A model generated the notes under the pieces. That model had not been told where the DNA came from and did not search any database. It saw nothing but the letters and a program-made list of their open reading frames with translations. The position numbers and the translations under genes were made by a program. From a virus, in the IMG/VR virus record IMGVR_UViG_3300047470_000395, positions 32,001-96,000 of that record: a stretch of DNA of 64,000 nt, one strand, 5' to 3'. Positions 862 through 17,374 of the stretch are shown here, piece by piece. How positions within the stretch are numbered: the stretch's first letter is position 1; the number at the start of each line of letters is the position of its first letter.

Positions 862-3800
862 ATGCTGAATCGCCCCGCTGCTGCGCACGCTGAGTTGCAG
901 GACCTGAGTGACGGTCTCGAGGTCAAGGCCGCCCGCCGTTGGAACCCGTCCCTGCATCCTCGCGACAGCAAGGGCCGGTTTATCGAGACGGGCGGCATCG
1001 TCCGCCTGTGGGGAGGCGATCTCGCGCGCGTCATGCGCGCCCTGCCGAACGATCGCATCCTCGTGCAGGACCAGACCGGCCCGGACGAATTCAACGGCCG
1101 CAGGCACACCACCAGCGCCAAGTGGGTGTCCATGGTGGCCCGCCCCGATGGCTCCGCGCCCACCGACAACGAGCACAAGGTCGAGGCGGAGGACGAGAAG
1201 CGGGACAAGGACGCGCGGCGCGGCAACGGCGTCGTCCATGACGACATCGGCGACCCCGACACCCCCAACGACGCCCACGCCGTCGACGACCGCGGCCGCG
1301 CGATCGGCGAGGACGACCACCCGGTCGGGCCTCGCGAGAACGACGACCAGGACGAGCCGGAGCACGGCAGGCACCCGGTCAACGTCCGCGCCCTGCCCAA
1401 CCAGAGCACCGCGGGCGGTAGCCGCTTCCAGGACACGGCGGCAGTCCGTCAGCACTTCCTCGACCTGGCCGACCGGCCCGACACCCGGCCGGAGATGGCG
1501 CAGTTCCTGCGTTCCGTCGCCACTGACGAGGACCTGCGCGTCTCGGGCGACCTGGCCGTCCTCCGCGACGACTCCACCGGCCGCTGGTACCTGACGGCGA
1601 CCGGCACCGGTCAGCGCATGGACCTCGCCGGGGACTTCGCCACCCCCGAGGAGGCCAGCGAGTTCGCGCGCCATCTCAGGCGCACCGCTCCGACCAAGGG
1701 CACTGCGATCCGCTCCCTTGCCCGGGGGTTCGACTTCTCCAACCCCGACCTTGACGCCGAGGCGCGCACCTGGCGCTCGGACAGGGACGAGAACATCGCG
1801 GCCGCCATCAAGCGGGCCCGCGGGGAATTCGACGCTTCCCGCTCCGCCCCCGCCTCCGATGCCGCCCGCGCCCCGCACGCCGACGCCGGCACCCCGGAGA
1901 CGGTCAGCCGCGAGGAGCTCAAGCCCGGCGACCGCGTCAAGGTCACCGTGAGCCGCAGCGACATCGAGTGGCCGACGAGCACCCGCGACCAGGACAAGCC
2001 GGAGACGGTCACCGTCGAGGGCACCATCGCGCCCACCCACTCGGCCGGCCCGGGTGTAAGCGGCGCAACGCTCGTCGACGTCACGCTGACCAGCCCGGAC
2101 GGCACGGTCATGACGTCCGGCGACACCGCACGCATCCGGCGCATGCCCACCCAGGTCGCACGCTCCGGGCACACCGACGGCTTCACCCCGGAGGAACGGC
2201 GTGCCGACCGCGTCCGTGTCGGCGACGTCATCGCCCGCGGGGAGTTCGGGCACGTCGTCACGCGCATTGACCGCGGTCAGGGCGGCCGCGCTTTCACCAC
2301 GCGCAACCTCGGCGGCCGTGGCGAGGTCGACCAGTTCGGCGCCCGCCACGGCGACATGCTGTCCGTCGTCCCGAAGGCCCGCCGCCGGCCGGAGGATGTG
2401 CAGCGCGACACCCCGGGCCACACACAGCAGCACCCCAACAGCAGGGATGCCAAGGGCGCGGCCGCGGCGATCCTCAGCGACTGGGCGAAGGTCAACGAGC
2501 TCGCCGCGCAGCAGTGGCCGGACGGGGCACCGGAGGAGTTCCGCACCCTGGCCCAGCACATGCAGAACGTCACGGACGCCCCGAAGGGCGCCGACGGCTA
2601 CCAGCAGAACGCCGACGCGATGCGCGGCGCCCTGGACGCGCTCCACGGCCTCGACAGCGAGGGCGTCAGCCAGGACATGGTGAAGGCGCTGCACCGGCTC
2701 GAGGAGGGCCTGGACGCCAACGCCGACCGGTTCGAGGCCGACTCCCGGGCGATCACGGAGAACAAGCGGAAGCGCGAGGCGGTCAACGCCCCGAACCCGG
2801 ACGCTCCAGCCGCCCCGAACGCCCCGCAGAGCAACGCCCCCACGAACGACCATCCGACGGGTGAACCGCTACAGCACAACTGGGACCCCGAGAACCTGGT
2901 CACCCTGACCATGCCGGAGGCGCTCGCGAACTTCCTGAACGTCGACGAGACCGCGGCCATGGAGGACCCCGACACCCGGAAGGCCCTCACAGAAGCCGTC
3001 CACGGCCGCAACGGCATCCTCAAGGTGACCGCACCGATCGAGACGCACCGCGCCCTGCTCGAGTGGGCGTGGACGCTCGCAGGCGGCGAAGGACTGGACT
3101 CCGACCCGAAGGAAGTCCGGGCCCACCGCAACTACACCAAGCGCGTCGACGAGGCCGCGGCAAAGCTGGAGCGCGAGCGGCAGCACCGCGGCGCCCCGGA
3201 CGCGAACGGGAACGCACCCGACGCCGGCACCGATGACGGTAAGACGGACGCGCCGTCGGCCAACACCCCCGGCGCCGACACCAGCGAGCCGCAGAACACC
3301 CCGGACACGGTCACCATGACGCCCGACGAGGTGTCCAACCACCTCGACGCGGTGCGCCCCGAAGGCTCCAAGGCGCCGTCACGCATGGACGACGGCGAGA
3401 TCCGCGACGAGATCGTCTCCCTGATGGAGCGGGAGATGGCCAACGGCGGGGAGCTGTCGGGAGTCGACCGCACCCGCCTCCAGGTCCTCGAGGCGGAAGA
3501 GGCCCGCCGCGCCGGCCGCGCGCCGAAGCGCGAGGACAAGCCGAAGCCGAAGCCCGCGGAGGAGCCCGGCGGCCTGTTCGACGTCGCCCCGGACGAGCAG
3601 CAGCAGTTCGTTGCCGACCCGAACAACCCCGACGACCTGGCGGACGACCCGCTGGGCACGCCGGACATGTTCGCCAACCACGAAGGCCGCGACACGTCCC
3701 GGCTGCGCCCCCCGCAGTCCCGCAAGCCTGCCGACTTCAAGCCCGGCGACCGGTTCGTCGACACCGACGGGCGCACCCACACCGTGAAGGAGGAGCCGAT

Positions 3801-6800
3801 ACGGACCCCGCGCGGCCGTATCCGCGTCGTCGATGAGGACGGCGGAGAGCACTTCCTCGCACCGGACAAGGAGCTGCGCGTCCTGCACGAGGGCGAGGAC
3901 GCCCCCGCGGTGCCGGAGACCAACGCCCCCGACGCGAACGCGCCGGAGAGCGGTGCTCCGTCCGCGGACACCCCGGAAACCGGCACACCGGGCGCCGACG
4001 CTGCAGACACCCCCAACAACGCGCCCGAGGGCGGCACCCCCGACACCCCGGACGACTCCGTCGCCCCGCCCGCCCCGGTCGGGGATGCGTCCCCGACGAG
4101 CATGAGCAACGAGGACATCGACGCCGAGCTCGAGGCGCTGCAGGCGTGGCAGAACCGGCACGTCGCAAGCAGCGGGGAAGGCCCGCGCGTTCAGGGCAGT
4201 CCCATGGTCGCTCTCTCTCCTGTCGGCAACCGGCGGGGCGCCCTGCGCGAGGAGCAGCGCAAGCGTGAGGTGGCCCGCCAGGACAAGGAGCGGAAGGAGA
4301 AGGAGAAGCAGGACCGGGCCGCAGCGCTCGCCCGTTCCGAGATCGGCAACCGCGCCGCTGACGGCTCGTACCCGGTGACCGTCGACGGCGAGAACGCCGG
4401 CAGCGTCAGCCAGACCGCCCGCAAGTGGCAGTACACCGACGCCGAAGGCCGCAGGTCTCCCGACTTCTACCCGAGCCGCGCCCAGGCCGTGGCCGCGCTG
4501 GTCAGCAACCGCGACGTCCGCCGGAACAACGACGCGCAGCACGCTCGCCAGGATCAGGCGCGTACGCAGACGCCGAACGGGTGGGCTCTCGGCGACCGCG
4601 CCGACGTGGCCGAGAACGACATCATCCGTATCCCCCGGATGGGCCGTGACCGTGACGGCAGGCCGTACCCCGAGGGCTGGGGCCAGCCGGTCCGCGTCAA
4701 CCGTGTGGAGCGCCGGGACGACGGCACGACGATCGTCTCCTACAGCAACCCGGACGGCTCGTATGCGGGAGGCAGCCCGCTGTTCCTGCGGGGTCCCGAC
4801 GACTCGTTCGCGTGGGCCAACGACCGCACCCGCCCGGAGCCGACCCCCGCGTGGCGGCACGAGCTCCGTCCCCGGATGGCCGACATCGGCGACGACGTCG
4901 CCACCCTGCTGAACCACGCCGACGGCCTCGACGACCAGGACCAGGAGCGGATGCGGCGCCTGGGCGAGCTGATCCGCCGCGTAGAGGACGGCGACACCGA
5001 GGATCTGCAGGCGGACCTCCGCAAGATCCGCGACGAGGCCGCGTGGCTCGAGGAGCAGTTCAGCCGCGAGGACCTGCCGTTCGAGACGCGCAGGTACAAG
5101 TCGTGGGCCACGGCCGCGCACGGGAAGGCACAGCGGTCCCTCGACCACCCTGACTTCCAGCACGGCAGCACGGCCGACGGCCCGGACAACGCCCCCGGCA
5201 ACGCCCCGGACGCGGACGCGCCGAGCGCCGATGGCGTGCCCGACTGGGCCAACGACCTCGGTGACGGTGTCTGGCTCGACGAGCCGAGGAGCACCGGCGG
5301 GCCCCGGAACATCTACGTCGACGGCCAGATTGAGGGACTCCTCGGTCGGGACCGGCCGAAGGGCAGGTACTACTGGTGGCGGCCGGGGGGCCAGACCAGC
5401 CAAGAACGCTTCGACACCCCCGAAGAGGCCGCCCGCGCCTTCGCCCGCGAGATGCGGGAGAACAACCTGCCGAGCCTGAGCACGCCCAACGACGGCGGCA
5501 ACGGCCACGACGACCGCGCCAGCCGTGCCCGGGACCTGTTCGGCGAGGGCATGAACGCCGTGGGCGGCGACTCCCTCCCGGAGATGCAGGAGCTGAACGA
5601 CCGCCTCGGCCGCGCTGATTCCTCGGACGACCGGGATGCGGAGCTGCGCGACGTCGCCGACCGCATGGACGAGCTCGCCGACCAGTACGGGCTCGCAGGC
5701 CCGCAGGGTGAGCTTGCCGCGGACCAGTTCCGTCGCGCCGCGCGCGCCGCCCGCGGTGAGCACGACGACCACAACGGCGACAACGGCGACGGCCAGCCCG
5801 ACGCCACGCCCATCACCGACGGCGAGTCCAACAACGGCCAGGACGACCAGCAGCGCAGCGACGACCAGGGCGACGGACAGCAGGACGACAACCAGCCCAG
5901 CAACCAAGACGACAACCAGGGCGACAACCAGGGCGACGACGAGGAGAGCCGTCGGCGCGACAACCCCAACCCCGACGGTGACGCGGCCGGCCCCGACGGC
6001 GCCCCCGACGGTGGCGGCCCGGGTGCGCCCGACGACACCAACGACTCGAGCGACTCCAACAACGACCAGAGCAACGGTCCCGACAACTCGGACGACTCGA
6101 CGGACGAGCCCAACCCAGACGAGGAGAACCAGGACTCCGAAGAGGAGAAGCGCCGCAAGCGTCGCCGCCGCAATCGTAACGGCGGAGGCGGTACCGGTGG
6201 CCCCGGCGGGGGCGGACCGGGCGGGCTTGGCCTGCCGCACCTGAGCCTGCCGAACCTCAACGTCCCCGCCGGAACGGGCGGCAACGGTGGCAACGGCAGC
6301 CACGGCGACGGCCACCACCCGCGTACGCCTCACAACCCCCGCCCGCACGACGTGGACTCCCTGCGGAACGCCTGGCGATCCGGTCAGGGACTCACCGCGG
6401 GCGAGGACACCCCCGAGCGGCGCGCCCACCTCGCCGATCTGGCGGACCGCGAGGGCCTCACCCTGTCCCCCCAGGGCGGACTCGCCCTGTATCCCGAGCA
6501 GCAGGACGACGGCACCACCGTGTGGCGCTTCGCCCAGGCCCGCAACGGCTCAAACCTGCCCGGCATCACCCTGACCACCGACGACCCCGAGGAAGCGCGC
6601 GCGCTCGCGGGCAGGTTCGAGGAGATCACCGACGCTAACGGCGACCCCTTCGACTGGCACCAGCCGCAGGGACCGGCCAGCGTCGCCGCGTGGCGTGACG
6701 GGGAAGGCCGCACCCTGCCCCAGGCCATCCGCGCGGTGCAGGACGACTACCAGCAGGAGCGCGCCGGAGCGTTCAACCTGCCCGAGGACCTCACGGGCAT

Positions 6801-9800: not shown

Positions 9801-12333
9801 CGACCTGGTGGCCATGCCGGACGAGCGCCACGGCGACCAGGTGCGTGTCTTCCGCGTCATCGACGCCGAGGACGGCCCCGGAGGCGTGCGCAGCTTCCTC
9901 CTGGAGGACGAGAACCAGCAGTGGCGGCGCCGCGTCGTCCACGGGGCCATGCCCGTGTGGCAGCTCCCCGAGGCCGAGCCGGAGCCCGTTGTCCCGCCCG
10001 ACGTCGACGACACCGACGGCGCACCGGACTCTGCGGGTGACTCCGGATTCGGTATCCCCGGGGGCCCGATGCGCCGCGCTGGAGACGACCCTGCCGCGCC
10101 GACCGCCCCGACCGCTCCGACCGCCCCGACCGCTCCGGCCACGCCGGACGGCTCGAGCACCCCGGACGAGCCCACGGCGCCCGTCGCCCAGGTCCGCCCG
10201 GGAAGCCTGCGCCGCGGCGACGTCATCGACGCGCCCGTGAGCCGGACCGGCTACCAGTTCAACGGCCACCGGCGACTGACCATCATCAGCGAGCCGCAGC
10301 GCAACGGCTGGTGGATGCAGCTCACCGGCGTCGACGAGGACGGCAACGTCCACGACTTCGGGCTGCACAACGGCCGTGCCGTGAACGTCTACGACCGGAA
10401 CCGGCCCACCCCGGCCCTGCCTCCGGCCGGTACGCCCCGCGACCCCAACCAGGTGCCGCAGACCGACCTCAACCAGCTCGTCACCGACCACGGACGCGCC
10501 CACGCCGCCCGCATCATCGACGAGGCCATCGCAGGCACGGAGCCGCCCGGCGACATCCACGCCCTGCGTGAGGGCATCGCCCAGCGCCTCACCCCGGATG
10601 CCCTGGCCAACGCCCGCCAGGCGACCCGCCAGGACGGCATCGCTGCCCTCGACGCCGCGAGCATCACCGGCCGGGACCGGGCGAGCGCCCAGCGCCGCCT
10701 GCGCACCACCCGCAACCGGGCCCACGACGACACCGTGCGCGCGGCCCTGCGCACCATCAACGACCTCGAGCCCCTCGACGGCGAGAGCAACGAGGACCTG
10801 GCGGCCCGCGCCCGGGACCTGCTGCGCCTCATCCCGGACCAGGTCGCCGGCCGCCCAGACGCCGACCCCGACGCCGACCCCGACGTCACCCGGGCCGTGA
10901 CGGGACACGCCGACGACGCGGTGAACACGCTCCTGCAGCAGCTCCAGGCCGCGGGCGTGGACCCGGGCGACGCCGAGCGGATCGCCCGCGTGCTCACCCA
11001 GCAGATGGCCGGGACCCGGCAGGCCACCGCCCGCCGGATCGCGCGCCGGGTTGCCGCGGCGAACCCCGACGCCGGACGACAGCCGGGCCTCCTCGCCCGG
11101 ATCGTCGCCGCCCTGGTCCGCCTGGCCAAGCGGTTCGGGGAGCTGGTGAAGCAGGGAGCCCGGACGATCGCCGAGAAGTACCGCGACTCGCGCGAACGCC
11201 TCGCCCGCCTGCGCGCCTTCCTGGGCCGCATGGTGCGCCGTGTCCGGCAGTGGCCGGAGTCCCGCCGCCTGGCCCGCCTCCACCGTGCGGTGAACCTGCC
11301 GGACACGGACGGCGAGTCGCTCGCCGCACGGATCAGCCACTGGGCCGGACTCATGCCGGAGCCGGGCCGGTTCGGGCAGTCGCAGCGGCGCCTCACGTTC
11401 TGGCGGCCGACCACGTGGGCGCGCCTCGCGTCCGGTCATCTCCCGGACCGGTCGGACCGGATCCAGTGGACCCCGGACCGTGCAGCCGACGGCGGCCCCG
11501 GCCTGACCGGGCTCCGCCACATGGCAGCCCTGCGAATGGCCGGCCAGGACGTCGACACCGACGTGACCCGTCGTCTGTCCGCCGCTCTCGGCGACGACTT
11601 CGGGGACGACCCGCACGTCACGCTGCAGCACGCGGACGACTACGTGGCCGCGAGCGAGCGCCGCCTGGTCAACCTGCAAGCGGCCCGCAGTAGCGCGACC
11701 ATCCCGGACGACCCCGACCTCGACATCGAGATCACGGGCGCCCGCTCCGAGCTCGCGGCCGCCCGCCGGGAGTACTCGGACCTGCGGACGCGATACGCCG
11801 CCGCCGTGCCCGACGCCGTGGCCGCGTCCCTGGCCGACATCCGCGACATGGGCCCCGAGGGCACCGCCGCGATCGTGTTCGGCCCTGACACCGACCCGGA
11901 CGCCGAACGCGCCGTGCGAGGCGTCCAGCGGCTCATCCCCCGGTCATGGCTCAACACCGCCGAGGCACGCCGCTTGACGGCCGTGGACGGCACCCAGGGC
12001 CGGTACGAGCCGGAGGGACAGCGGGCCACGGTCGCCGACCTGGCCGACGAGGGACTCGGCACGGCCGGGTTCGCCCTGGGCCAGCACTTCGCCGGACACC
12101 TCGGCGACCTCGACGCCGCGCAGCGCGCGTTCCAGTTCAGCCGGACCCACACCGGCCGGCCGGGCGCCCGCCGGATGCAGCGCAGCCCGTGGGACCGGAT
12201 CCGGCGACGGCAGCAGACGCAACCGGAGACCGGTGACACTCTCGCCCGGTCCATTCAGGCGATGTTTAGTGGCGACTGGTACCAGGACGACGACATGCGC
12301 GCGTTCCTCCTGGGCCTGCTCGCCACGCGATAA
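862..12333 (+). CDS. Giant (~3,820 aa) multidomain virion-associated / polyvalent-like protein
   Basis: Uninterrupted ORF with typical GC3 bias in the head module; N-terminal WNPSLHPRDSKGRF motif; repeated 'L-x-x-GD-x-V' beta modules; degenerate zincin-like C-terminus. Confidence 0.85.
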   Translation: MLNRPAAAHAELQDLSDGLEVKAARRWNPSLHPRDSKGRFIETGGIVRLWGGDLARVMRALPNDRILVQDQTGPDEFNGRRHTTSAKWVSMVARPDGSAPTDNEHKVEAEDEKRDKDARRGNGVVHDDIGDPDTPNDAHAVDDRGRAIGEDDHPVGPRENDDQDEPEHGRHPVNVRALPNQSTAGGSRFQDTAAVRQHFLDLADRPDTRPEMAQFLRSVATDEDLRVSGDLAVLRDDSTGRWYLTATGTGQRMDLAGDFATPEEASEFARHLRRTAPTKGTAIRSLARGFDFSNPDLDAEARTWRSDRDENIAAAIKRARGEFDASRSAPASDAARAPHADAGTPETVSREELKPGDRVKVTVSRSDIEWPTSTRDQDKPETVTVEGTIAPTHSAGPGVSGATLVDVTLTSPDGTVMTSGDTARIRRMPTQVARSGHTDGFTPEERRADRVRVGDVIARGEFGHVVTRIDRGQGGRAFTTRNLGGRGEVDQFGARHGDMLSVVPKARRRPEDVQRDTPGHTQQHPNSRDAKGAAAAILSDWAKVNELAAQQWPDGAPEEFRTLAQHMQNVTDAPKGADGYQQNADAMRGALDALHGLDSEGVSQDMVKALHRLEEGLDANADRFEADSRAITENKRKREAVNAPNPDAPAAPNAPQSNAPTNDHPTGEPLQHNWDPENLVTLTMPEALANFLNVDETAAMEDPDTRKALTEAVHGRNGILKVTAPIETHRALLEWAWTLAGGEGLDSDPKEVRAHRNYTKRVDEAAAKLERERQHRGAPDANGNAPDAGTDDGKTDAPSANTPGADTSEPQNTPDTVTMTPDEVSNHLDAVRPEGSKAPSRMDDGEIRDEIVSLMEREMANGGELSGVDRTRLQVLEAEEARRAGRAPKREDKPKPKPAEEPGGLFDVAPDEQQQFVADPNNPDDLADDPLGTPDMFANHEGRDTSRLRPPQSRKPADFKPGDRFVDTDGRTHTVKEEPIRTPRGRIRVVDEDGGEHFLAPDKELRVLHEGEDAPAVPETNAPDANAPESGAPSADTPETGTPGADAADTPNNAPEGGTPDTPDDSVAPPAPVGDASPTSMSNEDIDAELEALQAWQNRHVASSGEGPRVQGSPMVALSPVGNRRGALREEQRKREVARQDKERKEKEKQDRAAALARSEIGNRAADGSYPVTVDGENAGSVSQTARKWQYTDAEGRRSPDFYPSRAQAVAALVSNRDVRRNNDAQHARQDQARTQTPNGWALGDRADVAENDIIRIPRMGRDRDGRPYPEGWGQPVRVNRVERRDDGTTIVSYSNPDGSYAGGSPLFLRGPDDSFAWANDRTRPEPTPAWRHELRPRMADIGDDVATLLNHADGLDDQDQERMRRLGELIRRVEDGDTEDLQADLRKIRDEAAWLEEQFSREDLPFETRRYKSWATAAHGKAQRSLDHPDFQHGSTADGPDNAPGNAPDADAPSADGVPDWANDLGDGVWLDEPRSTGGPRNIYVDGQIEGLLGRDRPKGRYYWWRPGGQTSQERFDTPEEAARAFAREMRENNLPSLSTPNDGGNGHDDRASRARDLFGEGMNAVGGDSLPEMQELNDRLGRADSSDDRDAELRDVADRMDELADQYGLAGPQGELAADQFRRAARAARGEHDDHNGDNGDGQPDATPITDGESNNGQDDQQRSDDQGDGQQDDNQPSNQDDNQGDNQGDDEESRRRDNPNPDGDAAGPDGAPDGGGPGAPDDTNDSSDSNNDQSNGPDNSDDSTDEPNPDEENQDSEEEKRRKRRRRNRNGGGGTGGPGGGGPGGLGLPHLSLPNLNVPAGTGGNGGNGSHGDGHHPRTPHNPRPHDVDSLRNAWRSGQGLTAGEDTPERRAHLADLADREGLTLSPQGGLALYPEQQDDGTTVWRFAQARNGSNLPGITLTTDDPEEARALAGRFEEITDANGDPFDWHQPQGPASVAAWRDGEGRTLPQAIRAVQDDYQQERAGAFNLPEDLTGMDDADLEAAMRQGLGPEDELRVMAEMDRRDGYVDERVRAAAQATPPTNADEAEREGRAMDEALRFGDTDVTQPAPATPGRLRREFDALDEERFQAAMQATGGRMLSPEAEAQGIDPRALFSGGKYSNKQAKELASPELKHWFDGDDNTPGNGRLTYPQYRARETDRALRAEFADWDEARYRQAVDFTNGYFFRREYKYGFTDFNERELFSGGSLSARDRWMQYASDELQEWFDLNGGRQTFAQFREARRANDRAERHQHEEEELQRAAGGTPEGGAPNGAGPLTDDDVTPAPPFNAATPESESDASFRFGGRDRMQQFADRAEVRPDGATSEGVWLNGRQIGTIHNVNGANADREPVWDASPFYGLDHSANSRSQSRDTAIANLVVRALQNGPTDSSNPSEDMWDSVTLHLAGLTHPLPELPEALRDDPEARARYDRLSSMVDSFRDQQSPTGDLRQDLAQARDDFAWLHDALEGQARTPQQREELSDLKTRTFWADRLQHGLGEPNSDLERPHAPGEPQGAGDAPSPAVPTPEPANAPDDTADPSATPEPEPEPNPDPIGGQPAHWARVGDLAQGDMVRMNGTTRRGRPVQRAGYVQSTPELVDVTRRGRTDQMWRTWVTENPDGTGAAGNVYTSANATAARAEAPDNVVPGSPASGAQASLRSGDLPDQIPADRDGNGLFPGSTVRGTNDREGTITGAAPTTVSVHWSDGNDDDALPATTLTVTNAQRPDGWTADGHRVTTQSIVSDSDGALLGPVDDVAGDNVTVHTTDGTITRSAGDLRVTGQVRDDAPPTAPVTGIDEPAAADLKDGDVVVLDLDGQLSTVAITSPPHHDGDRVTLQYADTTTGEMGEIDVDARAVLPRAQGPDGGAPDLGPDNAPEPADDLTVHPTPRTVDPVTGPTVDPDLDSSDRNVIGDHADGPDTDPDAHQAAVRITSDLPVTPEQAQALATQLRSAADPSTLEGRAALRAADHLDRAAGRTPPTGLDRPRASNAAQIGEGDLVAMPDERHGDQVRVFRVIDAEDGPGGVRSFLLEDENQQWRRRVVHGAMPVWQLPEAEPEPVVPPDVDDTDGAPDSAGDSGFGIPGGPMRRAGDDPAAPTAPTAPTAPTAPATPDGSSTPDEPTAPVAQVRPGSLRRGDVIDAPVSRTGYQFNGHRRLTIISEPQRNGWWMQLTGVDEDGNVHDFGLHNGRAVNVYDRNRPTPALPPAGTPRDPNQVPQTDLNQLVTDHGRAHAARIIDEAIAGTEPPGDIHALREGIAQRLTPDALANARQATRQDGIAALDAASITGRDRASAQRRLRTTRNRAHDDTVRAALRTINDLEPLDGESNEDLAARARDLLRLIPDQVAGRPDADPDADPDVTRAVTGHADDAVNTLLQQLQAAGVDPGDAERIARVLTQQMAGTRQATARRIARRVAAANPDAGRQPGLLARIVAALVRLAKRFGELVKQGARTIAEKYRDSRERLARLRAFLGRMVRRVRQWPESRRLARLHRAVNLPDTDGESLAARISHWAGLMPEPGRFGQSQRRLTFWRPTTWARLASGHLPDRSDRIQWTPDRAADGGPGLTGLRHMAALRMAGQDVDTDVTRRLSAALGDDFGDDPHVTLQHADDYVAASERRLVNLQAARSSATIPDDPDLDIEITGARSELAAARREYSDLRTRYAAAVPDAVAASLADIRDMGPEGTAAIVFGPDTDPDAERAVRGVQRLIPRSWLNTAEARRLTAVDGTQGRYEPEGQRATVADLADEGLGTAGFALGQHFAGHLGDLDAAQRAFQFSRTHTGRPGARRMQRSPWDRIRRRQQTQPETGDTLARSIQAMFSGDWYQDDDMRAFLLGLLATR

Positions 12334-12709: not shown

Positions 12710-13348
12710 GTGACCAGATACGGATTCGCCATCAAGGCTCTCCCCAAGGGCGCCAAGCCTTTCGGGCAGGAAGACGACAAGAACAAGGAGAACCCGGGGC
12801 TCGAGACATCCAGCCCCGGCGCCTCCGACAGCGACACCTCCCTGGACCCCGCGGACGAGCTGCCCGAGGACCCGACGGCGGCCCCGTTCGCGCCCGCCGA
12901 CGACCCCGCGGCGCCCCCGGAGGACCCTGCAGCCTCCCCTGCCGCGGACGCTCCACCGGCGGGAGACGGCACCGGAGAGGAGCCGACGGACGCCCCGCCA
13001 CAGCCGGAAGGTGACTCCCGCCCCTGGGCCGGAGACGAGTACAACGAGGGCGAGGAGACCGATCCCGACGGCCCCCTGTCGTGGTCTGCGTTCACCGGCG
13101 GCAACGGGGAACAGGCTTGGCTCGACAAAGCCCAGGACGGCACACTGACCGGATGGGTGCGGGACTCCACCGGCCAGGTGTGGCGCTACACCGACCCCGA
13201 CGCGTGGGCGCTCGACGTCGACGGCGCCCACATGACGCAGACGCACCACAACGGCGAGGACAACGCCCAAGCGGCCGGGGACGGCACGCAGGGCGGACAG
13301 CCCCCGGACGACCGGGGCAAGCAGGACCTGATGTTCGCGGGCCAGTGA
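12710..13348 (+). CDS. Acidic Pro-rich hypothetical protein with a Trp-rich C-terminal domain
   Basis: In-frame GTG at 12710 (VTRYGFAIKALP...); the ORF-track start at 12623 lies inside the palindrome. Confidence 0.7.
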   Translation: MTRYGFAIKALPKGAKPFGQEDDKNKENPGLETSSPGASDSDTSLDPADELPEDPTAAPFAPADDPAAPPEDPAASPAADAPPAGDGTGEEPTDAPPQPEGDSRPWAGDEYNEGEETDPDGPLSWSAFTGGNGEQAWLDKAQDGTLTGWVRDSTGQVWRYTDPDAWALDVDGAHMTQTHHNGEDNAQAAGDGTQGGQPPDDRGKQDLMFAGQ

Positions 13349-13358
13349 GGAGAGTCGA

Positions 13359-13574
13359 GTGAAGCTCAACCGGCAGGCGTTCCAGGACCTGCTCAACGAG
13401 GGCAAGGCCGCGTACGCGGCGGGAGACCCATCCGACTCGTGCCCGTACAACATGTACGGCGCAGACGTAGAGGAGCGGTTCGGGTACCGCTACTGGACCC
13501 GCGGATGGGTCATGGCCCGGTCTGAGGCCGAAGCCCAGGCTGCCCAGCCTGTAGGAGCCAGCGCAGGACAGTAA
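13359..13574 (+). CDS. Rmf/CrpP-fold small protein
   Basis: EGKAAYAAG...CPY...YWTRGW resembles the Rmf pattern G-x-x-A-x-x-x-G...CPY...W-x-x-GW; GAGGAG RBS. Confidence 0.6.
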   Translation: MKLNRQAFQDLLNEGKAAYAAGDPSDSCPYNMYGADVEERFGYRYWTRGWVMARSEAEAQAAQPVGASAGQ

Positions 13575-13633: not shown

Positions 13634-15856
13634 GTGCCGAGCGCTGCTCCACCCACCAGATCCACCCGTCCCAGCACCACCCAGCGAGGCACCAGCCGGG
13701 CAATCTACGCCGTGACGGGCGTGGTCGACGAGGTCGATGACCTCATCCTGCCTGGTGCTTTCACCCGCACCCTGGCTTCACGGCCCGTCAAGTCCGTGTG
13801 GCATCACGGGTGGAAGGACCCTGTCGGCGTCGTCCTCGAGTGCGAGGAGTGGCTGCCCGGGGACGTCCGATTCAAGAGCGTGCCCGACTGGCCCCCCGAG
13901 GCCGGCGCGCTCGTCGCCACCGTGCTCTACAACCTGCGCACCCAGCAGGGCCGCGACGCCTACGAGCAGGTCAAGCAGTGGCATGAGCACAAGCAGGCCG
14001 CGTTCTCGATCGGCTTCCGCGTCCCTGAGTGGGGCGCCTCCACCCGCAACAAGATCCGTGTCATCCACGACATGGACCTGTTCGAGGTCTCGCCCGTTCT
14101 GCACGGCGCGCACCCGATGACCCGCTCCCTCGAGGTGAAGTCCGCCGCCGGTAGCGGCCACGACGGGCTCGAGTACAAGTCCACGCCCGGCCCCGTAGAG
14201 ATCGACGTCGTCGCCTCCTCAAAGAGCGATGACGCCGTCAAGGTCGCGGGACTGGTCGTCAAGGCCGCCGACACGGGCCGCGTCCTGATGATCCAGCGCG
14301 CCCTCGACGACGAGGACCCGGCCGCGGGCACCTGGGAGTTCCCCGGCGGACATGGGGAGGACGACGAGGACCCGCTCCAGACTGCGATCCGCGAGTGGGG
14401 TGAGGAGACCGGCTCGACGCTCCCCGGCACCACCAGCGTCGTCGGGTCCTGGACAGCCCCGAACGGCATCTACCGGCTCTACGTGGCAGTCGTCCCGACC
14501 GAGGCGTCTGTACCGATCAACACCCCGCACGACGAACGCCGGATCGCCAATCCGGATGACCCGGTTGGCGACGCGACCGAGGTCACCGCCTGGTGGCCGA
14601 TCACGGCTCTCCCCGATATGCCGCTCCTGCGGCAGGAGTGCCGCGAAACCCCGTGGGACCTCCTGGCCGGCGCTGCCCTGCCGAAGCCCTCCGGGCCGAC
14701 CCTCGACCCCGTGAAGGTCGCGGCCGGGACCGTCGCTGCCCAGGACTTCGCCGACGGTGTGCTGTCCCGATACCGGGCCCTCGCCGCCGCCGAGAAGAAG
14801 TCCGCGCACGCCGCGGTGCAGGGCGCCCGTACCCGGCCGCACCTCGAGCACAAGTCCGCCCGCGTCATCGTCGCCGAGGCCAAGTCCGCCGGCGGCGCGG
14901 ACCAGAACCGCGGGGACGCCGAGCAGTTGCGGCACTGGTACGTCCGCGGTGAGGGCGCAGCTCAAATCGGCTGGGGCACTCCCGGCGACTTCGACCGCTG
15001 CGTGTCCATCGCCGGACGCCACATGAGCCCGGAGAACGCCAAGGGCTACTGCAATCTCCGCCACAAGGACGCCCTGGGCATCTACCCCGCCACCCACGCG
15101 GCCGAGAGCAAGAGCGCTCGCCGCGCTGTCCTCGAAGCCAAAGCACGACTCAGCGCCAGCACTGGAGACCCCATGGACCCGATCCAGACCCTGCCCCAGT
15201 CGTTCGAGCAGATCCGCGACCGCCTCGGCCAGGCCGTCCGCATGCTGCTCGCTCCCGATGACGACACCTGGGCGTGCATCCACGGCACCTACCCGGACCA
15301 CGTCATCGCCTCGGTGCACTCCGGCGAAGAGGGAGAGGAGCACTACCTGGTGCCGTACACCCTCGACGGCGACGACGTGGACCTGGGCACGCCGAAGCCG
15401 GTCACGCTGGCCACCGTCGTTGTCTCCGACGAGGACGACGACGAGCCGCGCGAGGCCGACGAGGACGAGGAGGCCGAAGCCCGCGTCGTTCAGCCCACGG
15501 TCGACGCGCTCAGCGACGCGACCGCGCGGATCAGCACCACCACCGCGGGCCCGAAGCAGCTCGAGGATGTCCGCGACAAGGTCCGTGACCTGATCGCCGC
15601 CCTGTCGGCGAAGGGACTCGACGTCGCCGACGCACAGCCCGCACGCCGCGGGCCGGCGGCCGCAGCGTCGGGGCTGGACCTGTGGGACGAGGACGACGAG
15701 GAGACGCCCGACGACACCGGGGACGGCGATCCCGAAGGCGACGGAGGAGACCCCGCGGGCGACCAGGACGACCCGACCCTCAAGCCGAAGGACGACGACG
15801 CCGTCCGCCTGGACCCCGACGAGGTGAGGGCCGCACTCGCCGCACTGCGGAGCTGA
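13634..15856 (+). CDS. HK97-family prohead protease fused to a Nudix hydrolase and additional domains
   Basis: VDEVDDLILPGAF, WHH, FSIGF and LFEVSPV protease motifs; Nudix box GHGEDDEDPLQTAIREWGEETG (~14348-14413); GGAGG RBS. Confidence 0.88.
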   Translation: MPSAAPPTRSTRPSTTQRGTSRAIYAVTGVVDEVDDLILPGAFTRTLASRPVKSVWHHGWKDPVGVVLECEEWLPGDVRFKSVPDWPPEAGALVATVLYNLRTQQGRDAYEQVKQWHEHKQAAFSIGFRVPEWGASTRNKIRVIHDMDLFEVSPVLHGAHPMTRSLEVKSAAGSGHDGLEYKSTPGPVEIDVVASSKSDDAVKVAGLVVKAADTGRVLMIQRALDDEDPAAGTWEFPGGHGEDDEDPLQTAIREWGEETGSTLPGTTSVVGSWTAPNGIYRLYVAVVPTEASVPINTPHDERRIANPDDPVGDATEVTAWWPITALPDMPLLRQECRETPWDLLAGAALPKPSGPTLDPVKVAAGTVAAQDFADGVLSRYRALAAAEKKSAHAAVQGARTRPHLEHKSARVIVAEAKSAGGADQNRGDAEQLRHWYVRGEGAAQIGWGTPGDFDRCVSIAGRHMSPENAKGYCNLRHKDALGIYPATHAAESKSARRAVLEAKARLSASTGDPMDPIQTLPQSFEQIRDRLGQAVRMLLAPDDDTWACIHGTYPDHVIASVHSGEEGEEHYLVPYTLDGDDVDLGTPKPVTLATVVVSDEDDDEPREADEDEEAEARVVQPTVDALSDATARISTTTAGPKQLEDVRDKVRDLIAALSAKGLDVADAQPARRGPAAAASGLDLWDEDDEETPDDTGDGDPEGDGGDPAGDQDDPTLKPKDDDAVRLDPDEVRAALAALRS

Positions 15857-15997: not shown

Positions 15998-16081
15998 CAC
16001 GCCTCGCGTTGAGGCGTCCCGGTGCTGGCCGGGCGAACGGCGCACGTCAACCGCCACCCCAGCATCAGGGAGAGCCCCGCA

Positions 16082-17374
16082 ATGCCCACCAGCCGTATTC
16101 AGGAGCTGCAGAAGGCGCTCGAGCTCAAGAGCAACGAGGCCGAGCGCATCAGCCAGACTTTCAAGGTCGAGGACGGCGGCCAGTTCATCGTCTCCAGCGA
16201 GCAGGCCAAGGCCTTCCGCAAGGTCTCCGGCGAGGCGCAGGAGATCAAGGCGCTCATCGACGCCGAGCAGGGTCTGACCGAGATCAAGCAGTACCTCGAC
16301 GCCCCGGACGCCCCGCCGGCCGCGGCCGCCCACTACGCCCAGCGCCACACGGGTGTCGAGGAGAAGTCCCTCGGCGACCTGTTCGTCGAGTCCGGCTCCT
16401 ACCAGCGCGCCAACCAGGCCGAGTTCCGTGACAAGCCGTACATCCGCGCCGACATCGAGGGGAAGTCGATCTTTTCCCTGTCCGCGGGCACCGTGTCCCA
16501 CCAGGTCCTCGGCTCCGCGCAGAACCTCGGCATCGCCGAGCGCCCGTTCCGCAAGTTCCACGTGCGGGACCTGTTCCCCAAGTCGACCACCAAGAACCCC
16601 GTCCTGTACGGCGCGCGTGAGACCGGCTGGACGAACTCCGCCCGCCAGGTCAAGGAGCGGTACGCCGCGGACGGTGTCTCGCCGGCGACCGGCGCGGACA
16701 CCGACACCTGGGGTCGGGCCCCGCGTTCCAAGCTGACCCTGACGCCGGTGATGTACCCGGTCGCAGAGGTCGCGCACCTCCTGGACGCGCACAAGAACAT
16801 CCTCAGCGACGAGCCGCGTCTGAAGACGTTCATCAACACCAGGATGGTGGAGGGGGTCAAGTACGCGGAGGACTGGGACCTCTTGCACAGCGTCGGCGAC
16901 GGCCAGTCCCTCACCGGCATCTACAACACCCCCGGCGTCCAGCAGTACACCGGCCTCGCGGCCGACCAGTACTCCGTCCAGATCCGCCGCGCCATCACCA
17001 AGGCGCTGCTGGCCGAGTACGACCCGACCGGCATCGTCCTGTCCCCGACGATGTGGGAGCGCGTCGAGGTCGAGGAGGACAAGAACGGCGCCTTCCGCGT
17101 CGCCATCGCCGTCGCCATCGGTGCCGAAAAGAAGGTGTGGAGGCTGAACGTCGTCGAGACGACCGCGATGGCCGACAGCGACTTCCTGATCGGTGCCTTC
17201 GGTCTCGGCGCGCAGCTCCACGACCGCGAGAACGTGTCCGTGACCGTCTCCTCGGAGAACGCGGACAACTACGAGAAGGGCCTGATCACCTTCCGTGCCG
17301 ACGAGCGCCTGGCGCTCGAGGTCCCGCGGCCGGAGTCGTTCGTCATCGGCTCCTGGACCCAGCCGACCGGCTGA
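16082..17374 (+). CDS. Major capsid protein (HK97 fold, N-terminal coiled-coil delta domain)
   Basis: VRDLFP, AHLLDAHKNILSDEPRLKTFIN, GDGQSLTGIYN, ITFRADERLALEVPRPESF; follows the protease; RBS before ATG 16082. Confidence 0.92.
   Translation: MPTSRIQELQKALELKSNEAERISQTFKVEDGGQFIVSSEQAKAFRKVSGEAQEIKALIDAEQGLTEIKQYLDAPDAPPAAAAHYAQRHTGVEEKSLGDLFVESGSYQRANQAEFRDKPYIRADIEGKSIFSLSAGTVSHQVLGSAQNLGIAERPFRKFHVRDLFPKSTTKNPVLYGARETGWTNSARQVKERYAADGVSPATGADTDTWGRAPRSKLTLTPVMYPVAEVAHLLDAHKNILSDEPRLKTFINTRMVEGVKYAEDWDLLHSVGDGQSLTGIYNTPGVQQYTGLAADQYSVQIRRAITKALLAEYDPTGIVLSPTMWERVEVEEDKNGAFRVAIAVAIGAEKKVWRLNVVETTAMADSDFLIGAFGLGAQLHDRENVSVTVSSENADNYEKGLITFRADERLALEVPRPESFVIGSWTQPTG

What the first reader, a model, noticed from the sequence alone, without database searches (positions are those of the whole stretch)
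862..17374. Candidate protease-processed head-cargo system: a shared E-x-K-[S/A] motif across the giant protein, the protease polyprotein and the capsid
Seen: the protease ORF contains seven such motifs, LEVKS (14129), LEYKS (14168), AEKKS (~14792), LEHKS (~14846), AEAKS (~14876), AESKS (~15104) and LEAKA (~15134). They fall at domain boundaries: protease | Nudix | short spacers | ~70-aa Cys/His/Trp domain | acidic tail. The capsid has LELKS, VEEKS and IEGKS in its delta-domain region. The giant protein has LEVKA at ~residue 20 (916-930), just before the HPRDSKGRF motif, and the 12710 protein begins FAIKA. Established: the HK97 protease cleaves its capsid protein at a Lys-Ser bond. Inference: the protease gene is a self-cleaving polyprotein that releases a Nudix enzyme and a small domain inside the head, and the same tag marks a ~400-kDa cargo for encapsidation and maturation, possibly for injection into the host.
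Basis: partly seen in the sequence, partly recalled or inferred. Interest (0 to 1): 0.85.

Follow-up and report, generated by a model that had tools for sequence, protein, structure and literature searches.

The report
Head protease polyprotein carrying enzyme cargo
A large Streptomyces phage fuses its capsid-maturation protease to a Nudix enzyme and other small domains, joined by a short Glu-x-Lys signal that also marks the capsid, so the protease probably cuts enzymes loose inside the head; no cut has been measured.

Summary
The 740-aa protease ORF has 7 E-x-K-[S/A] motifs against 0.34 expected (0 of 20,000 shuffles reach 7). The capsid has 4 against 0.33. The giant protein has 1 against 0.58, which is no excess.

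In 17 relatives, sites 1-5 persist (14-18 of 18 rows). A 70-aa domain comes and goes exactly between sites. One relative has a 2H phosphoesterase in place of Nudix between the same sites.

In 150 distant representatives the motif is 5.1-fold enriched and lies almost only outside domains (379 of 390). It tracks the protease domain: 3.97 against 0.42 per 1000 aa.

An AlphaFold model puts 6 of the 7 sites in low-confidence linkers.

The giant protein keeps one N-terminal site (102 of 108 homologues). Its interior is depleted of the motif (26 seen, 175 expected).

Best reading: an HK97-type (S78) protease polyprotein that cuts itself and its neighbours after Lys and so releases swappable enzyme cargo.

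Cleavage, retention and injection are all inferred. The motif is a cut site, not a shown packaging tag. FAIKA does not fit it.

This is a new variant of a known kind (T4, phiKZ, P1 Dar, polyvalent proteins). The scan has noted similar systems on other DNA.

The parts
853..12333 (+). Giant protein (3826 aa from the ATG; the ORF is open from GTG 841). No Pfam or PHROG family. Candidate head-internal protein.
   Evidence: Same position in Gilgamesh (gp48) and upstream of the protease in all 16 IMG/VR loci. At least 163 Streptomyces homologues of 2200-6300 aa. A relative has N6-MTase plus SNF2 helicase.
916..930 (+). LEVKA: candidate N-terminal processing site of the giant protein (cut after K).
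   Evidence: E-x-K lies 13 residues before HPR in 102 of 108 homologues that have the HPR motif, and 5 of the other 6 have Q-x-K. P1' is A, S or V.
955..981 (+). HPRDSKGRF, part of the near-invariant RR-x-WNPALHPRDSKGRF block that would sit near the new N-terminus.
   Evidence: It is the only copy in the genome's six frames.
12710..13348 (+). Conserved 213-aa head-module protein beginning VTRYGFAIKALP. Not a match to the motif.
   Evidence: FAIKA is conserved in 16 of 17 rows but P3 is Ala. No family.
13634..15856 (+). Protease polyprotein, 740 aa.
13682..14149 (+). HK97-type (S78) prohead serine protease domain, residues 17-172.
   Evidence: Pfam PF04586, 41.9 bits against a cut-off of 21. 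41-47% identity to annotated Gordonia and Brevibacterium phage maturation proteases. H58 and S125 are at least 90% conserved in 87 sequences. pLDDT is above 90.
14129..14182 (+). Sites 1 and 2: LEVK|S (K169) and LEYK|S (K182), with a 13-aa spacer.
   Evidence: Site 1 is kept in 18 of 18 rows. Site 2 is E-x-K-[S/A] in 14 of 18, with T in 3 and E in 1. L166 and K169 are at least 90% conserved in 87 sequences. Residues 173-196 have pLDDT below 50.
14222..14689 (+). Nudix hydrolase domain, residues 197-352, with an intact Nudix box.
   Evidence: Pfam PF00293, E 2.4e-16. Fold matches to ADP-ribose pyrophosphatase, RppH and MutT. Replaced by PF13563 (2H phosphoesterase) in L019.
14789..14887 (+). 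Sites 3-5: AEKK|S (K389), LEHK|S (K407) and AEAK|S (K417), separated by 18- and 10-aa spacers.
   Evidence: Kept in 18, 17 and 17 of 18 rows. K417 is at least 90% conserved in 87 sequences. Residues 386-406 and 417-426 have pLDDT below 50.
14912..15100 (+). Small Cys/His/Trp domain (CHW), residues 427-489, function unknown.
   Evidence: phrog_6439, E 1.8e-22. Present in 6 of 18 family rows and absent exactly between sites in the other 12. It is the commonest passenger in the 150 representatives. Free-standing in other actinophages. pLDDT 94-97.
15101..15145 (+). Sites 6 and 7: AESK|S (K493) and LEAK|A (K503).
   Evidence: Found only in the 6 rows that have the CHW domain: site 6 in 5 of 6 and site 7 in 6 of 6. 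Residues 490-495 and 505-517 have pLDDT below 50.
15185..15628 (+). Conserved C-terminal domain (helix, beta sheet, two long helices), residues 518-665. No known family. Candidate capsid-interior anchoring part.
   Evidence: pLDDT around 85-97. Found after the passengers in most representatives. No Pfam, PHROG or PDB sequence match. The anchoring role is inference.
15629..15853 (+). Acidic low-complexity tail and conserved C-terminal helix (VRLDPDEVRAALAALRS).
16082..17374 (+). HK97-fold major capsid protein with an N-terminal scaffold (delta) domain. The ORF is open from GTG 16022 and the ATG is at 16082.
   Evidence: Pfam PF05065, E 4.3e-28. 89% identity to Gilgamesh gp53. 27% identity to HK97 gp5 in the MAFFT alignment.
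16118..16468 (+). Four capsid sites spaced 33-40 residues apart: LELK|S (16118), QEIK|A (16238), VEEK|S (16355), IEGK|S (16454).
   Evidence: The last three are kept in 17 of 17 relatives and the first in 3 of 17. IEGK|S lies next to HK97 K103|S104 in the MAFFT alignment, with similar spacing to the R-D-L block (31 against 33 residues). VEEKS lies opposite HK97 E-K-K-S 74-77.
1..181 (+). 3' end of the portal-MuF fusion gene (827 aa). Its two candidate sites lie upstream of the window: VETK|D near residue 31 and LETK|A at residue 559-562 in the portal-MuF linker.
   Evidence: [LI]ETKAL is kept in 6 of 6 loci and is LETKT in Gilgamesh. [VTA]ETKD is kept in 6 of 6.

Best explanation
The window is the head module of a 126-kb Gilgamesh-like Streptomyces phage. 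Its capsid-maturation protease is made as a 740-aa polyprotein. The order is: HK97-type serine protease, Nudix hydrolase, a small Cys/His/Trp (CHW) domain, a conserved C-terminal domain, an acidic tail and a terminal helix.

The flexible joints carry [L/I/V/A]-E-x-K followed by S or A. The same signal recurs every 33-40 residues in the capsid's N-terminal scaffold domain, at the portal-MuF joint, and once near the N-terminus of the 3826-aa neighbour.

Inferred mechanism. The polyprotein is built into the prohead, by analogy with HK97, where about 60 protease copies sit in each prohead. Once active, the protease cuts after Lys. This dices the scaffold domain and cuts the polyprotein into five folded pieces: the protease (about 17 kDa), Nudix (about 22 kDa), a helical spacer, CHW (about 8 kDa) and the C-terminal part (about 25 kDa). 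It also yields 10-18-aa peptides. The cut frees MuF from the portal and trims the giant protein.

Small peptides can leave the shell. Folded domains stay and may enter the host with the DNA.

Shown here: the motif is real, enriched and conserved, sits in linkers, is bound to the protease family, and brackets swappable cassettes. Inferred: cleavage itself, retention, ejection, and what the Nudix or 2H enzyme attacks.
For: (1) Enrichment: 7 motifs against 0.336 expected, with 0 of 20,000 shuffles reaching 7. The capsid has 4 against 0.334.

(2) In cultured phage Gilgamesh, the motif occurs in only 4 of 24 annotated structural-region proteins: giant N-terminus 1, RMF-like 1, protease-Nudix 6, capsid 3.

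(3) Alignment of 18 rows. Sites 1-5 are kept in 18, 14, 18, 17 and 17 rows inside otherwise variable linkers. The CHW domain with sites 6 and 7 is present in 6 rows and cleanly absent in 12. L019 has PF13563 (2H phosphoesterase, E 4.5e-14) where the others have Nudix, between the same sites.

(4) 150 representatives at 50% identity or less. E.K[SA] is seen 390 times against 76.3 expected. Controls: E.R[SA] 0.74, D.K[SA] 0.99, reversed motif 0.56. P4 is Leu in 29% against a 7% background.

(5) 379 of the 390 motifs lie outside modelled domains, which hold 37% of the residues. 112 lie within 10 aa of a domain edge, against 64.9 +/- 7.2 by random placement.

(6) The motif tracks the protease. There are 3.97 motifs per 1000 aa in 123 proteins with the protease domain, against 0.42 in 27 proteins that share Nudix or CHW but lack it (p 1.8e-11).

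(7) Of 61 representatives, 51 have S78, 26 have 2H, 16 have Nudix, 2 have PG-binding and 1 has an ADP-ribosyltransferase domain. Module order is shuffled among them.

(8) AlphaFold2 model, pLDDT 79.5. Confident domains are 17-172, 197-352, 427-489 and 518-665. Six of the seven sites lie in or at segments with pLDDT below 50.

(9) L166, K169 and K417 are at least 90% conserved across 87 sequences, as are H58 and S125.

(10) HK97 gp5 matures at K103|S104 (sequence; the 102-residue scaffold is stated in PMC12749128, passages read). That bond aligns beside IEGK|S.

(11) More distant phages with this protease type show the same signal. Cantare has VEVKS, AEIKA and MEAKS in its capsid. ChisanaKitsune has 5 E-x-K-S in the first 108 capsid residues against 0.26 expected. 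Pam4 and Sonali, annotated with differently built maturation proteases (families not tested), have 0 motifs in their protease and capsid genes, although Sonali's terminase has 2 and its gp6 has 1.
Against: No cleavage, packaging or ejection has been measured. All support is comparative.

Site 1 sits at the end of a confident beta strand (residues 161-170, mean pLDDT 94), not in a floppy stretch.

Glu at P3 is a preference, not a rule. Only 22 of 123 protease domains in the representatives are followed by a strict E.K[SA] at +4. The Gordonia phages have S-V-K-S there.

LELKS is not conserved (3 of 17 rows).

The close family is 63-95% identical to the window, so conservation within it is weak evidence on its own.

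In HK97 the protease fragments are thought to leave the head (recalled). Cutting could therefore serve disposal rather than cargo release.

Which capsid site gives the mature N-terminus is unsettled. Spacing favours S149. The K|SLG likeness, and BLAST alignments that start at 113-116, favour S116.
Confidence: 0.72

Rival explanations
1. The sites are cut, but only to clear the head. The polyprotein is degraded and its pieces leave or are inert, as with the HK97 protease and scaffold fragments. Nudix, 2H and CHW would then act in the infected cell before assembly, or be fused only for co-expression. They would not be delivered cargo.
For: The capsid scaffold domain carries the same sites every 33-40 residues, which looks like dicing for removal. 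Loss of HK97 scaffold fragments is stated in PMC12749128 (passages read). Nothing here shows retention.
Against: The sites lie almost only between folded domains and not within them (11 of 390 inside). That spares the domains rather than destroying them. The same Nudix and CHW domains are fused to portal or MuF-type proteins in other phages (Arthrobacter phages Sonali and Mufasa8; protease-less representatives), which points to a virion location. Folded pieces of 8-25 kDa are unlikely to pass capsid pores (inference).
Confidence: 0.15
2. The motif is not a cleavage site. It is a conserved structural or binding element of helical linkers, for example contacts with the capsid interior or the scaffold. 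The proteins would stay whole.
For: Several copies lie in predicted helices (H367-384, H392-399, H409-418 and H495-507). They share a longer pattern, E-x-K-S-A-R-x-x-V. No cut has been observed.
Against: The capsid copy lies beside the known HK97 K|S maturation bond. The motif sits at joints that bracket insertions, deletions and swaps. The giant neighbour's interior avoids it while the reversed and near-miss controls stay near 1.0. A binding element would not be counter-selected there.
Confidence: 0.1
3. Chance or composition: linkers rich in Ala, Glu and Lys throw up E-x-K-[S/A] without any function.
For: The single copy in the giant protein is within chance by count (1 against 0.58).
Against: 0 of 20,000 shuffles reach the observed count in the polyprotein. 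Same-composition controls (reversed motif, K.E[SA], D.K[SA], E.R[SA]) are not enriched in 150 representatives, while E.K[SA] is 5.1-fold enriched.
Confidence: 0.02

Closest known systems
HK97 gp4 prohead protease (MEROPS S78, Pfam PF04586) and the gp5 delta domain
   Same: Same protease family, with a Pfam hit above the cut-off. The gene lies just upstream of an HK97-fold capsid gene that has an N-terminal scaffold domain. The known cut is after Lys (K103|S104). The protease is built into the prohead.
   Different: HK97 gp4 is 225 aa with no passenger domain and has 0 E-x-K-[S/A] motifs. Here 570 further residues carry Nudix, CHW and a C-terminal domain, with seven Lys sites between them.
T4 gp21 protease with internal proteins IPI-III and Alt (capsid targeting sequence plus L/I-x-E cleavage)
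   Same: One protease cuts the capsid, the scaffold and the packaged, injected proteins at a shared short motif. The cargo has an N-terminal leader that is removed (PMC9024508 and PMC5512222, passages read).
   Different: A different protease family and a different motif (cut after Glu; recalled). In T4 the cargo is encoded separately and is not fused to the protease. No targeting sequence is shown here.
phiKZ / SPN3US giant-phage head maturation (gp175 / gp245)
   Same: Many head-internal and ejection proteins are processed by the prohead protease at a consensus motif (PMC7411985, PMC10052503 and PMC5694885; listings and abstracts only).
   Different: T4-like protease. Myoviruses of Gram-negative hosts. 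The cargo is not fused to the protease.
Phage P1 Dar system (DarB, 250 kDa)
   Same: A very large methylase-helicase protein is packaged in the head through its N-terminal 30 residues (PMC9024508, passages read). Relatives of the giant protein here carry N6-MTase plus an SNF2 helicase.
   Different: The window's own giant protein has no recognisable methylase or helicase. No homology to DarB was tested. The N-terminal leader here is followed by a protease-type site.
Polyvalent proteins of phages and conjugative elements (Iyer et al. 2017, PMC5512222)
   Same: Multi-domain effector proteins encoded among late genes and predicted to be packaged and injected. 2H phosphoesterase and the MTase-SNF2 dyad are listed as modules. 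Processing into units is proposed (passages read).
   Different: That paper proposes processing by a built-in zincin (MPTase) domain. Here there is no HExxH in the giant protein, and the cutter would be the head's own S78 protease, which is itself the first module.
Microbacterium phage Burro gp27 and the cluster EK giant proteins (PMC7302621)
   Same: Actinophage proteins of more than 4,400 aa. Burro virions hold a band of about 250 kDa, read as gp27 or a processed part of it (passages read).
   Different: No sequence relation was tested, and no protease motif is described there.

Membership tests
Peptidase S78 (HK97-type prohead serine protease, PF04586) | Profile match above the curated cut-off | tested here: met
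   41.9 bits against 21, over residues 102-164. tblastn gives 41-47% identity over residues 23-171/197 to annotated maturation proteases.
Peptidase S78 (HK97-type prohead serine protease, PF04586) | Catalytic His and Ser in place | tested here: met
   H58 (WHHGWKDPVG) and S125 (FSIGF) match HK97 gp4 FNHKTWELPVG and MSVGF by direct reading. Both are at least 90% conserved in 87 sequences. That these are the catalytic pair is recalled.
Peptidase S78 (HK97-type prohead serine protease, PF04586) | Cuts the capsid scaffold domain after Lys | not testable with these tools
   Only the motif and its alignment to HK97 K103|S104 were seen.
Nudix hydrolase (PF00293) | Profile match, intact Nudix box and Nudix fold | tested here: met
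   60.4 bits against 21.1. GHGEDDEDPLQTAIREWGEETG fits G-x5-E-x7-R-E-x-x-E-E-x-G (consensus recalled). Foldseek hits to ADP-ribose pyrophosphatase, RppH and MutT, E 6e-7 and weaker. The substrate is unknown.
HK97-fold major capsid protein with delta domain (PF05065) | Profile match and an N-terminal helical extension ahead of the N-arm | tested here: met
   98.9 bits against 24.2. MAFFT alignment with HK97 gp5.
Polyvalent proteins (Iyer et al. 2017) | Two or more unrelated effector domains in one late-gene product | tested here: met
   Polyprotein: S78 plus Nudix plus CHW plus the C-terminal domain. For the window's giant protein no domain was recognised.
Polyvalent proteins (Iyer et al. 2017) | Zincin-like MPTase domain as the processing module | tested here: not met
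   No Pfam hit and no HExxH in the giant protein. The polyprotein has an S78 domain instead.
P1 DarB-like methylase-helicase head protein | N6-adenine methylase plus SNF2-type helicase dyad | tested here: not met
   The window's giant protein has 0 Pfam families at E up to 0.1. A relative (L035, 5582 aa) has N6_Mtase and SNF2/ResIII/Helicase_C. Others have UvrD families.
T4-type capsid-targeting-sequence cargo | An N-terminal leader sufficient for packaging and removed by the head protease | not testable with these tools
   A variable leader of 13-26 residues is followed by L-E-x-K in 102 of 108 homologues. Targeting was not shown.

The most novel reading that the evidence does not exclude
A large clade of actinobacterial phages uses the HK97-type head protease as a programmable delivery vehicle. 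The protease sits at the front and a capsid-anchoring domain at the back. Between them is a slot into which Nudix, 2H phosphoesterase, ADP-ribosyltransferase or other modules are swapped, each bracketed by a Lys cut code.

The enzymes would be released inside the capsid and injected with the DNA, to destroy nucleotide-based alarm or immune signals, or RNA ends, before any phage gene is expressed. A 400-600 kDa DarB-like giant protein would travel with them and survive because its interior has been purged of the cut code.
Probability: 0.3. Interest if true: 0.8.

Novelty: new variant of a known kind. Interest (0 to 1): 0.64.

Why it matters
Protease-processed, injected head proteins are known from T4, phiKZ-like phages and P1. 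HK97-type proteases are usually treated as small enzymes that destroy themselves and vanish.

Here the protease gene is the carrier of swappable enzymes. Of 61 diverse relatives, 26 carry a 2H phosphoesterase and 16 carry Nudix.

If the cuts are real, three things follow:
- A simple sequence rule, E-x-K|S/A in linkers, would predict mature virion proteins in many actinophage genomes.
- It would flag enzymes that act in the first seconds of infection. These are candidates for counter-defence against nucleotide signalling, though that role is speculative.
- It would offer a ready slot for loading foreign proteins into Streptomyces phage heads.

Motif avoidance inside the giant protein is a new kind of in-silico clue that a protein shares a compartment with a protease.

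Gilgamesh is cultured on S. lividans, so all of this can be tested directly.

Tried and rejected
- The first AlphaFold2 run used 16 close relatives and gave mean pLDDT 41, so I did not use it. A run with 87 sequences gave 79.5.
- Complex prediction of the capsid scaffold domain (residues 1-130) with polyprotein residues 600-740 returned 'no answer', score 0.05. It is no evidence either way.
- The giant protein, p89, p241 and the polyprotein's C-terminal part have no Pfam or PHROG family. A PDB sequence search with CHW and the C-terminal part found nothing usable.
- No similarity was found between the giant protein and the head-region proteins of Cantare, GMA6 or ChisanaKitsune.
- FAIKA of the 12710 protein is rejected as a motif copy because P3 is Ala.
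- NEGKA of the RMF-like protein is conserved in 13 of 13 rows, but it has a polar P4 and lies inside the small fold. I left it open.
- I first read VEEK|SLGD as the HK97-equivalent bond. The MAFFT alignment and the spacing favour IEGK|S, and I changed my reading.
- Caveat on the giant-protein depletion. E.K[SA] ranks 4th most depleted of 323 a.b[SA] motifs, and motifs such as P.W[SA] are equally low. After removing duplicate 7-mer contexts, 22 are seen against 55.2 expected (odds ratio 0.34), while controls give 0.81 and 0.76. A tail-protein control set of 90 sequences shows no depletion of E.K[SA] (38 against 25.1), but its other ratios scatter from 0.10 to 1.5. The sequences are related, so the p-values overstate the case.
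- Loci L036 and L037, from distant representatives, were uninformative.
- Literature searches found no paper on a protease-Nudix or protease-2H polyprotein, on an E-x-K cut code, or on phage Gilgamesh. That covers only the held library. Supplements were closed, and supplementary virion proteomics tables could bear on this.
- Duda et al. 2013 (PMC3709472) is not held. What I say about C-terminal targeting of the HK97 protease is recalled.

Full report
WHAT THE REGION IS. The window is bases 32001-96000 of a 125,780-bp virus record with about 70% G+C. Its nearest named relative is Streptomyces phage Gilgamesh (129 kb, host S. lividans). The protease is 65% identical and the capsid 89% identical, and the gene order is the same. 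That order is: portal-MuF fusion, small membrane protein, giant protein, an 89-aa protein, a protein of about 230 aa, a small RMF-like protein, a 'hydrolase' (the protease-Nudix gene), and the major capsid protein. In the window the giant ORF is 841/853-12333, the protease ORF is 13634-15856 and the capsid ORF is 16022/16082-17374. Pfam finds Peptidase_S78 (residues 102-164) and NUDIX (206-299) in the 740-aa protein, and Phage_capsid in the next one. The giant protein matches no Pfam or PHROG family.

CHECK OF THE OBSERVATION. The capsid has a fourth copy, QEIKA at 16238.

With 20,000 shuffles each:
- Polyprotein: 7 against 0.336 expected; no shuffle reaches 7.
- Capsid: 4 against 0.334; 3 shuffles reach 4.
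- Giant protein: 1 against 0.583; 8,928 shuffles reach 1.

Across my 104 ORF calls for the whole genome, the 102 other ORFs hold 15 motifs against 9.4 expected. In Gilgamesh's 24 annotated structural-region proteins the motif occurs only in the giant protein's N-terminus (1), the RMF-like protein (1), the protease-Nudix protein (6) and the capsid (3).

CLOSE FAMILY. A scan of IMG/VR gave 16 loci, 45-100% identical over the protease gene. One of them, L004, is the window's own sequence. All show the same neighbourhood.

In the 18-row alignment:
- Site 1, LEVK[S/A], is kept in 18 of 18 rows.
- Site 2 is E-Y-K-[S/A] in 14, E-Y-K-T in 3 and E-R-K-E in 1.
- Site 3, E-x-K-S, is kept in 18.
- Site 4, [L/I]-E-H-K-S-A-R, is kept in 17; the other row has Q for E.
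- Site 5 is kept in 17; the other row has N at P1'.

These are islands of identity inside linkers that otherwise vary.

Two natural experiments stand out. First, the roughly 70-aa Cys/His/Trp (CHW) domain, together with sites 6 and 7, is present in 6 rows and absent in 12, and the gap runs from just after site 5. Second, L019 has a 2'-5' RNA ligase / 2H phosphoesterase domain (PF13563, E 4.5e-14) where all the others have Nudix, between the same sites. So the passengers behave as cassettes bracketed by the motif.

DISTANT FAMILY. A full HMMER scan of 1.84 billion cluster representatives gave 3,894 hits. I analysed the best 150, which are 50% identical to each other at most.

- E.K[SA] occurs 390 times against 76.3 expected, a 5.1-fold excess. 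Controls in the same proteins: E.R[SA] 0.74, D.K[SA] 0.99, the reversed motif 0.56 and K.E[SA] 0.40. Q.K[SA] is 2.5-fold enriched.
- P4 is Leu in 29% of copies against a 7% background.
- I built profiles of the family's domains and mapped them. Eleven of the 390 motifs fall inside domains, although domains hold 37% of the residues.
- 112 motifs lie within 10 residues of a domain edge, against 64.9 +/- 7.2 for random placement in linkers (maximum 85 in 300 trials).
- Architectures are shuffled. Examples are protease-CHW-CTD (44 proteins), protease-2H-CHW-CTD (9), protease-CHW-2H-CTD (9), and forms with both Nudix and 2H in either order.
- Pfam on 61 of the 150, the first ones of at least 400 aa that fit the residue limit, finds S78 in 51, 2H in 26, NUDIX in 16, a peptidoglycan-binding domain in 2 and an ADP-ribosyltransferase domain in 1.
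- The motif follows the protease, not the passengers. The 123 proteins with the protease domain have 3.97 motifs per 1000 aa, and 7 of them have none. The 27 proteins that share Nudix or CHW but lack the protease have 0.42 per 1000 aa, and 18 of them have none (p 1.8e-11).

STRUCTURE. With an 87-sequence alignment, AlphaFold2 gives mean pLDDT 79.5. Confident units are 17-172 (protease), 197-352 (Nudix), 427-489 (CHW), 518-665 (an unnamed alpha/beta domain with two long helices) and helix 728-739. Segments below pLDDT 50 are 173-196, 353-365, 386-406, 417-426, 490-495, 505-517 and 670-723.

Six of the seven sites (K182, K389, K407, K417, K493, K503) lie in or at these segments. K169 ends the protease's last strand, four residues before the first floppy stretch.

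In the same alignment L166, K169 and K417 are at least 90% conserved, together with H58 and S125. H58 and S125 match the HK97 gp4 His and Ser by direct reading. Foldseek matches for the model are Nudix enzymes: ADP-ribose pyrophosphatase, RppH and MutT. These do not fix a substrate.

LINK TO A KNOWN CUT. HK97 gp5 reads ...GAKTFNK|SLGSDADS, with Ser at residue 104. The 102-residue scaffold domain that is removed is stated in PMC12749128 (passages read).

In a six-sequence MAFFT alignment this bond lies next to IEGK|S (K148|S149) of the window's capsid. The distance from the new Ser to the conserved R-D-L block is 31 residues in HK97 and 33 here. HK97's own E-K-K-S (residues 74-77) lies opposite VEEKS.

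Gordonia phages GMA6 and ChisanaKitsune have [M/I]-E-x-K-D at the IEGKS position. Cantare has G-Q-K-D there and MEAK|SLGE at the VEEKS position.

The four capsid sites are 33-40 residues apart, which would dice the scaffold domain into short peptides. Which site gives the mature N-terminus, S149 or S116, is not settled.

OTHER HEAD PROTEINS. The portal-MuF fusion (827 aa, mostly upstream of the window) has LETK|A at residues 559-562 in the Ala/Pro-rich linker between the portal and MuF halves. It is kept as [L/I]ETKAL in 6 of 6 loci and is LETKT in Gilgamesh. A second copy, [V/T/A]-E-T-K-D, lies about 31 residues from the portal's N-terminus in 6 of 6 loci.

The 12710 protein starts VTRYGFAIKALP in 16 of 17 rows but has Ala at P3, so I do not count it. 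The RMF-like protein's NEGKA is conserved but has a polar P4 and lies inside the fold, so I leave it open.

THE GIANT PROTEIN. Its C-terminal 781 residues have at least 163 homologues. Every named one is from Streptomyces, they are 2,200-6,300 aa long, and many sit on contigs of 125-130 kb.

The family is modular. Some members carry UvrD-helicase families and others SNF2 families. One relative (5,582 aa) has an N6-methylase at about residues 1500-1700 and SNF2/ResIII/Helicase_C at 2174-2704. This is the methylase-helicase dyad that Iyer et al. describe for polyvalent proteins and for P1 DarB, a head protein (PMC5512222, passages read). P1 packages the 250-kDa DarB through its first 30 residues (PMC9024508, passages read). 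The window's own copy has none of these modules.

Of the 120 listed homologues, 108 have the HPR-type motif near the N-terminus. Of those, 102 have E-x-K 12-14 residues upstream of it (13 in 98 of them), and 5 of the remaining 6 have Q-x-K. P4 is Leu in 68 of 82 distinct N-termini, and P1' is A (45), S (20) or V (17). Ahead of the site is a variable leader of 13-26 residues. Behind it is the near-invariant RR-x-WNPALHPRDSKGRF.

Inside the 122 giant proteins (586,026 residues beyond position 60), E.K[SA] occurs 26 times against 174.6 expected after local shuffling, a ratio of 0.15. The strict form with a hydrophobic P4 occurs 5 times against 56. Controls stay near 1: E.R[SA] 1.00, D.K[SA] 0.94, the reversed motif 1.10 and K[SA] overall 1.05. 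Q.K[SA] is also low, at 0.18.

The sequences are related, so I applied three harder tests:
- E.K[SA] is the 4th most depleted of 323 a.b[SA] motifs, and Q.K[SA] is the 6th.
- After removing duplicate 7-mer contexts, 22 are seen against 55.2 expected (odds ratio 0.34). Controls give 0.81 and 0.76.
- In 90 homologues of the phage's 1,886-aa tail protein the motif is not depleted (38 against 25.1). That smaller set's control ratios scatter widely, from 0.10 to 1.5.

I read this as moderate evidence that the giant protein is exposed to a protease of this specificity and is kept whole except near its N-terminus. Microbacterium phage Burro offers a precedent for a virion-associated giant protein that is probably processed (PMC7302621, passages read).

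HOW IT MOST LIKELY WORKS. Shown: the anatomy, the enrichment, the conservation, the linker placement, the tie to the protease family and the cassette behaviour.

Inferred: the polyprotein is co-assembled into the prohead. HK97 proheads hold about 60 protease copies (PMC12749128). That the C-terminal part targets the HK97 protease to the capsid is recalled from Duda et al. 2013, which I could not read. The protease then cuts after Lys at the joints. Short peptides escape, while Nudix, CHW and the C-terminal domain stay in the head with MuF and the trimmed giant protein, and some or all enter the host with the DNA.

Nudix and 2H phosphoesterase occupy the same slot. This suggests a shared target class among nucleotide-derived molecules or RNA ends, which is speculation. 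Iyer et al. made the same guess for 2H modules in polyvalent proteins.

WHAT IS KNOWN AND WHAT IS NEW. Protease-processed, packaged and injected head proteins are established for T4, phiKZ/SPN3US and P1. Polyvalent packaged proteins are a described class.

What I did not find in the held literature:
- an HK97-type protease that itself carries swappable enzyme modules;
- an E-x-K|S/A code shared by capsid, portal-MuF, protease and a giant neighbour;
- avoidance of that code inside the giant protein.

Earlier AI notes of this scan report the same motif set in a sister genome, and similar Lys-type cut-site linkers in Mx1-like and other phages. These are leads, not independent evidence. I file this as a new variant of a known kind.

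LIMITS. No experiment supports any cut. 

Noticed in passing
window 213-536 (+) and 542-754 (+): A staphylococcal-nuclease-like protein (Pfam SNase, E 1.9e-7) and a 70-aa membrane protein sit between the portal-MuF gene and the giant gene. These are unusual members of a head module.
   Followed up: partly
window 13359-13574 (+): A 71-aa protein with a weak RMF (ribosome modulation factor) match (E 0.014, below the cut-off) is annotated as RMF in Gilgamesh. It is conserved in 13 of 13 relatives and lies directly upstream of the protease gene.
   Followed up: partly
upstream of the window (genome 29698-32181; portal residues ~28-32): The portal N-terminus carries [V/T/A]-E-T-K-D after a variable Pro/Ala stretch in 6 of 6 relatives. 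This may be an N-terminal trimming site with Asp at P1'. The Gordonia phage capsids have E-x-K-D at the IEGKS position.
   Followed up: partly
giant-protein family (P0005-P0124; L035): Homologues differ by whole modules (UvrD helicase, N6-methylase plus SNF2 helicase, or none) between a conserved N-terminal block of about 130 aa and a conserved C-terminal block of about 780 aa. Many lie on Streptomyces contigs of 125-130 kb, as if on extrachromosomal prophages.
   Followed up: partly
window 14912-15100 (+); phages A3Wally gp87, Moostard gp94: The CHW domain (phrog_6439) is free-standing in other actinophages and is the commonest passenger in the protease polyproteins. It has conserved Cys and His residues that suggest metal binding. 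Its function is unknown.
   Followed up: partly
L010:10001-12292: This relative has an extra copy of the E-x-K-S-A-R-A-A-V unit after Nudix, so the short spacer peptides are themselves repeated units.
   Followed up: no
window 15815-15853 (+) and relatives: Most relatives have D-E-V-K-A-A in the C-terminal helix, while the window has D-E-V-R-A-A. This may be a further site about 10 residues from the C-terminus, or only a helix.
   Followed up: no
window 19011-19754 (+): Strong match to Pfam GP88 (E 9.5e-60) downstream of the capsid gene.
   Followed up: no
L003 (Brevibacterium phage Cantare) gp9, gp11, gp12: Cantare's head module holds a separate 'RNA ligase' gene and a 1040-aa protein with I-E-E-K-A at residues 14-18 and an HEIGH motif near its C-terminus. 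It also has a protein with the CHW domain, then L-E-T-K-A, then LysM-like repeats. The same parts are therefore split over several genes.
   Followed up: partly
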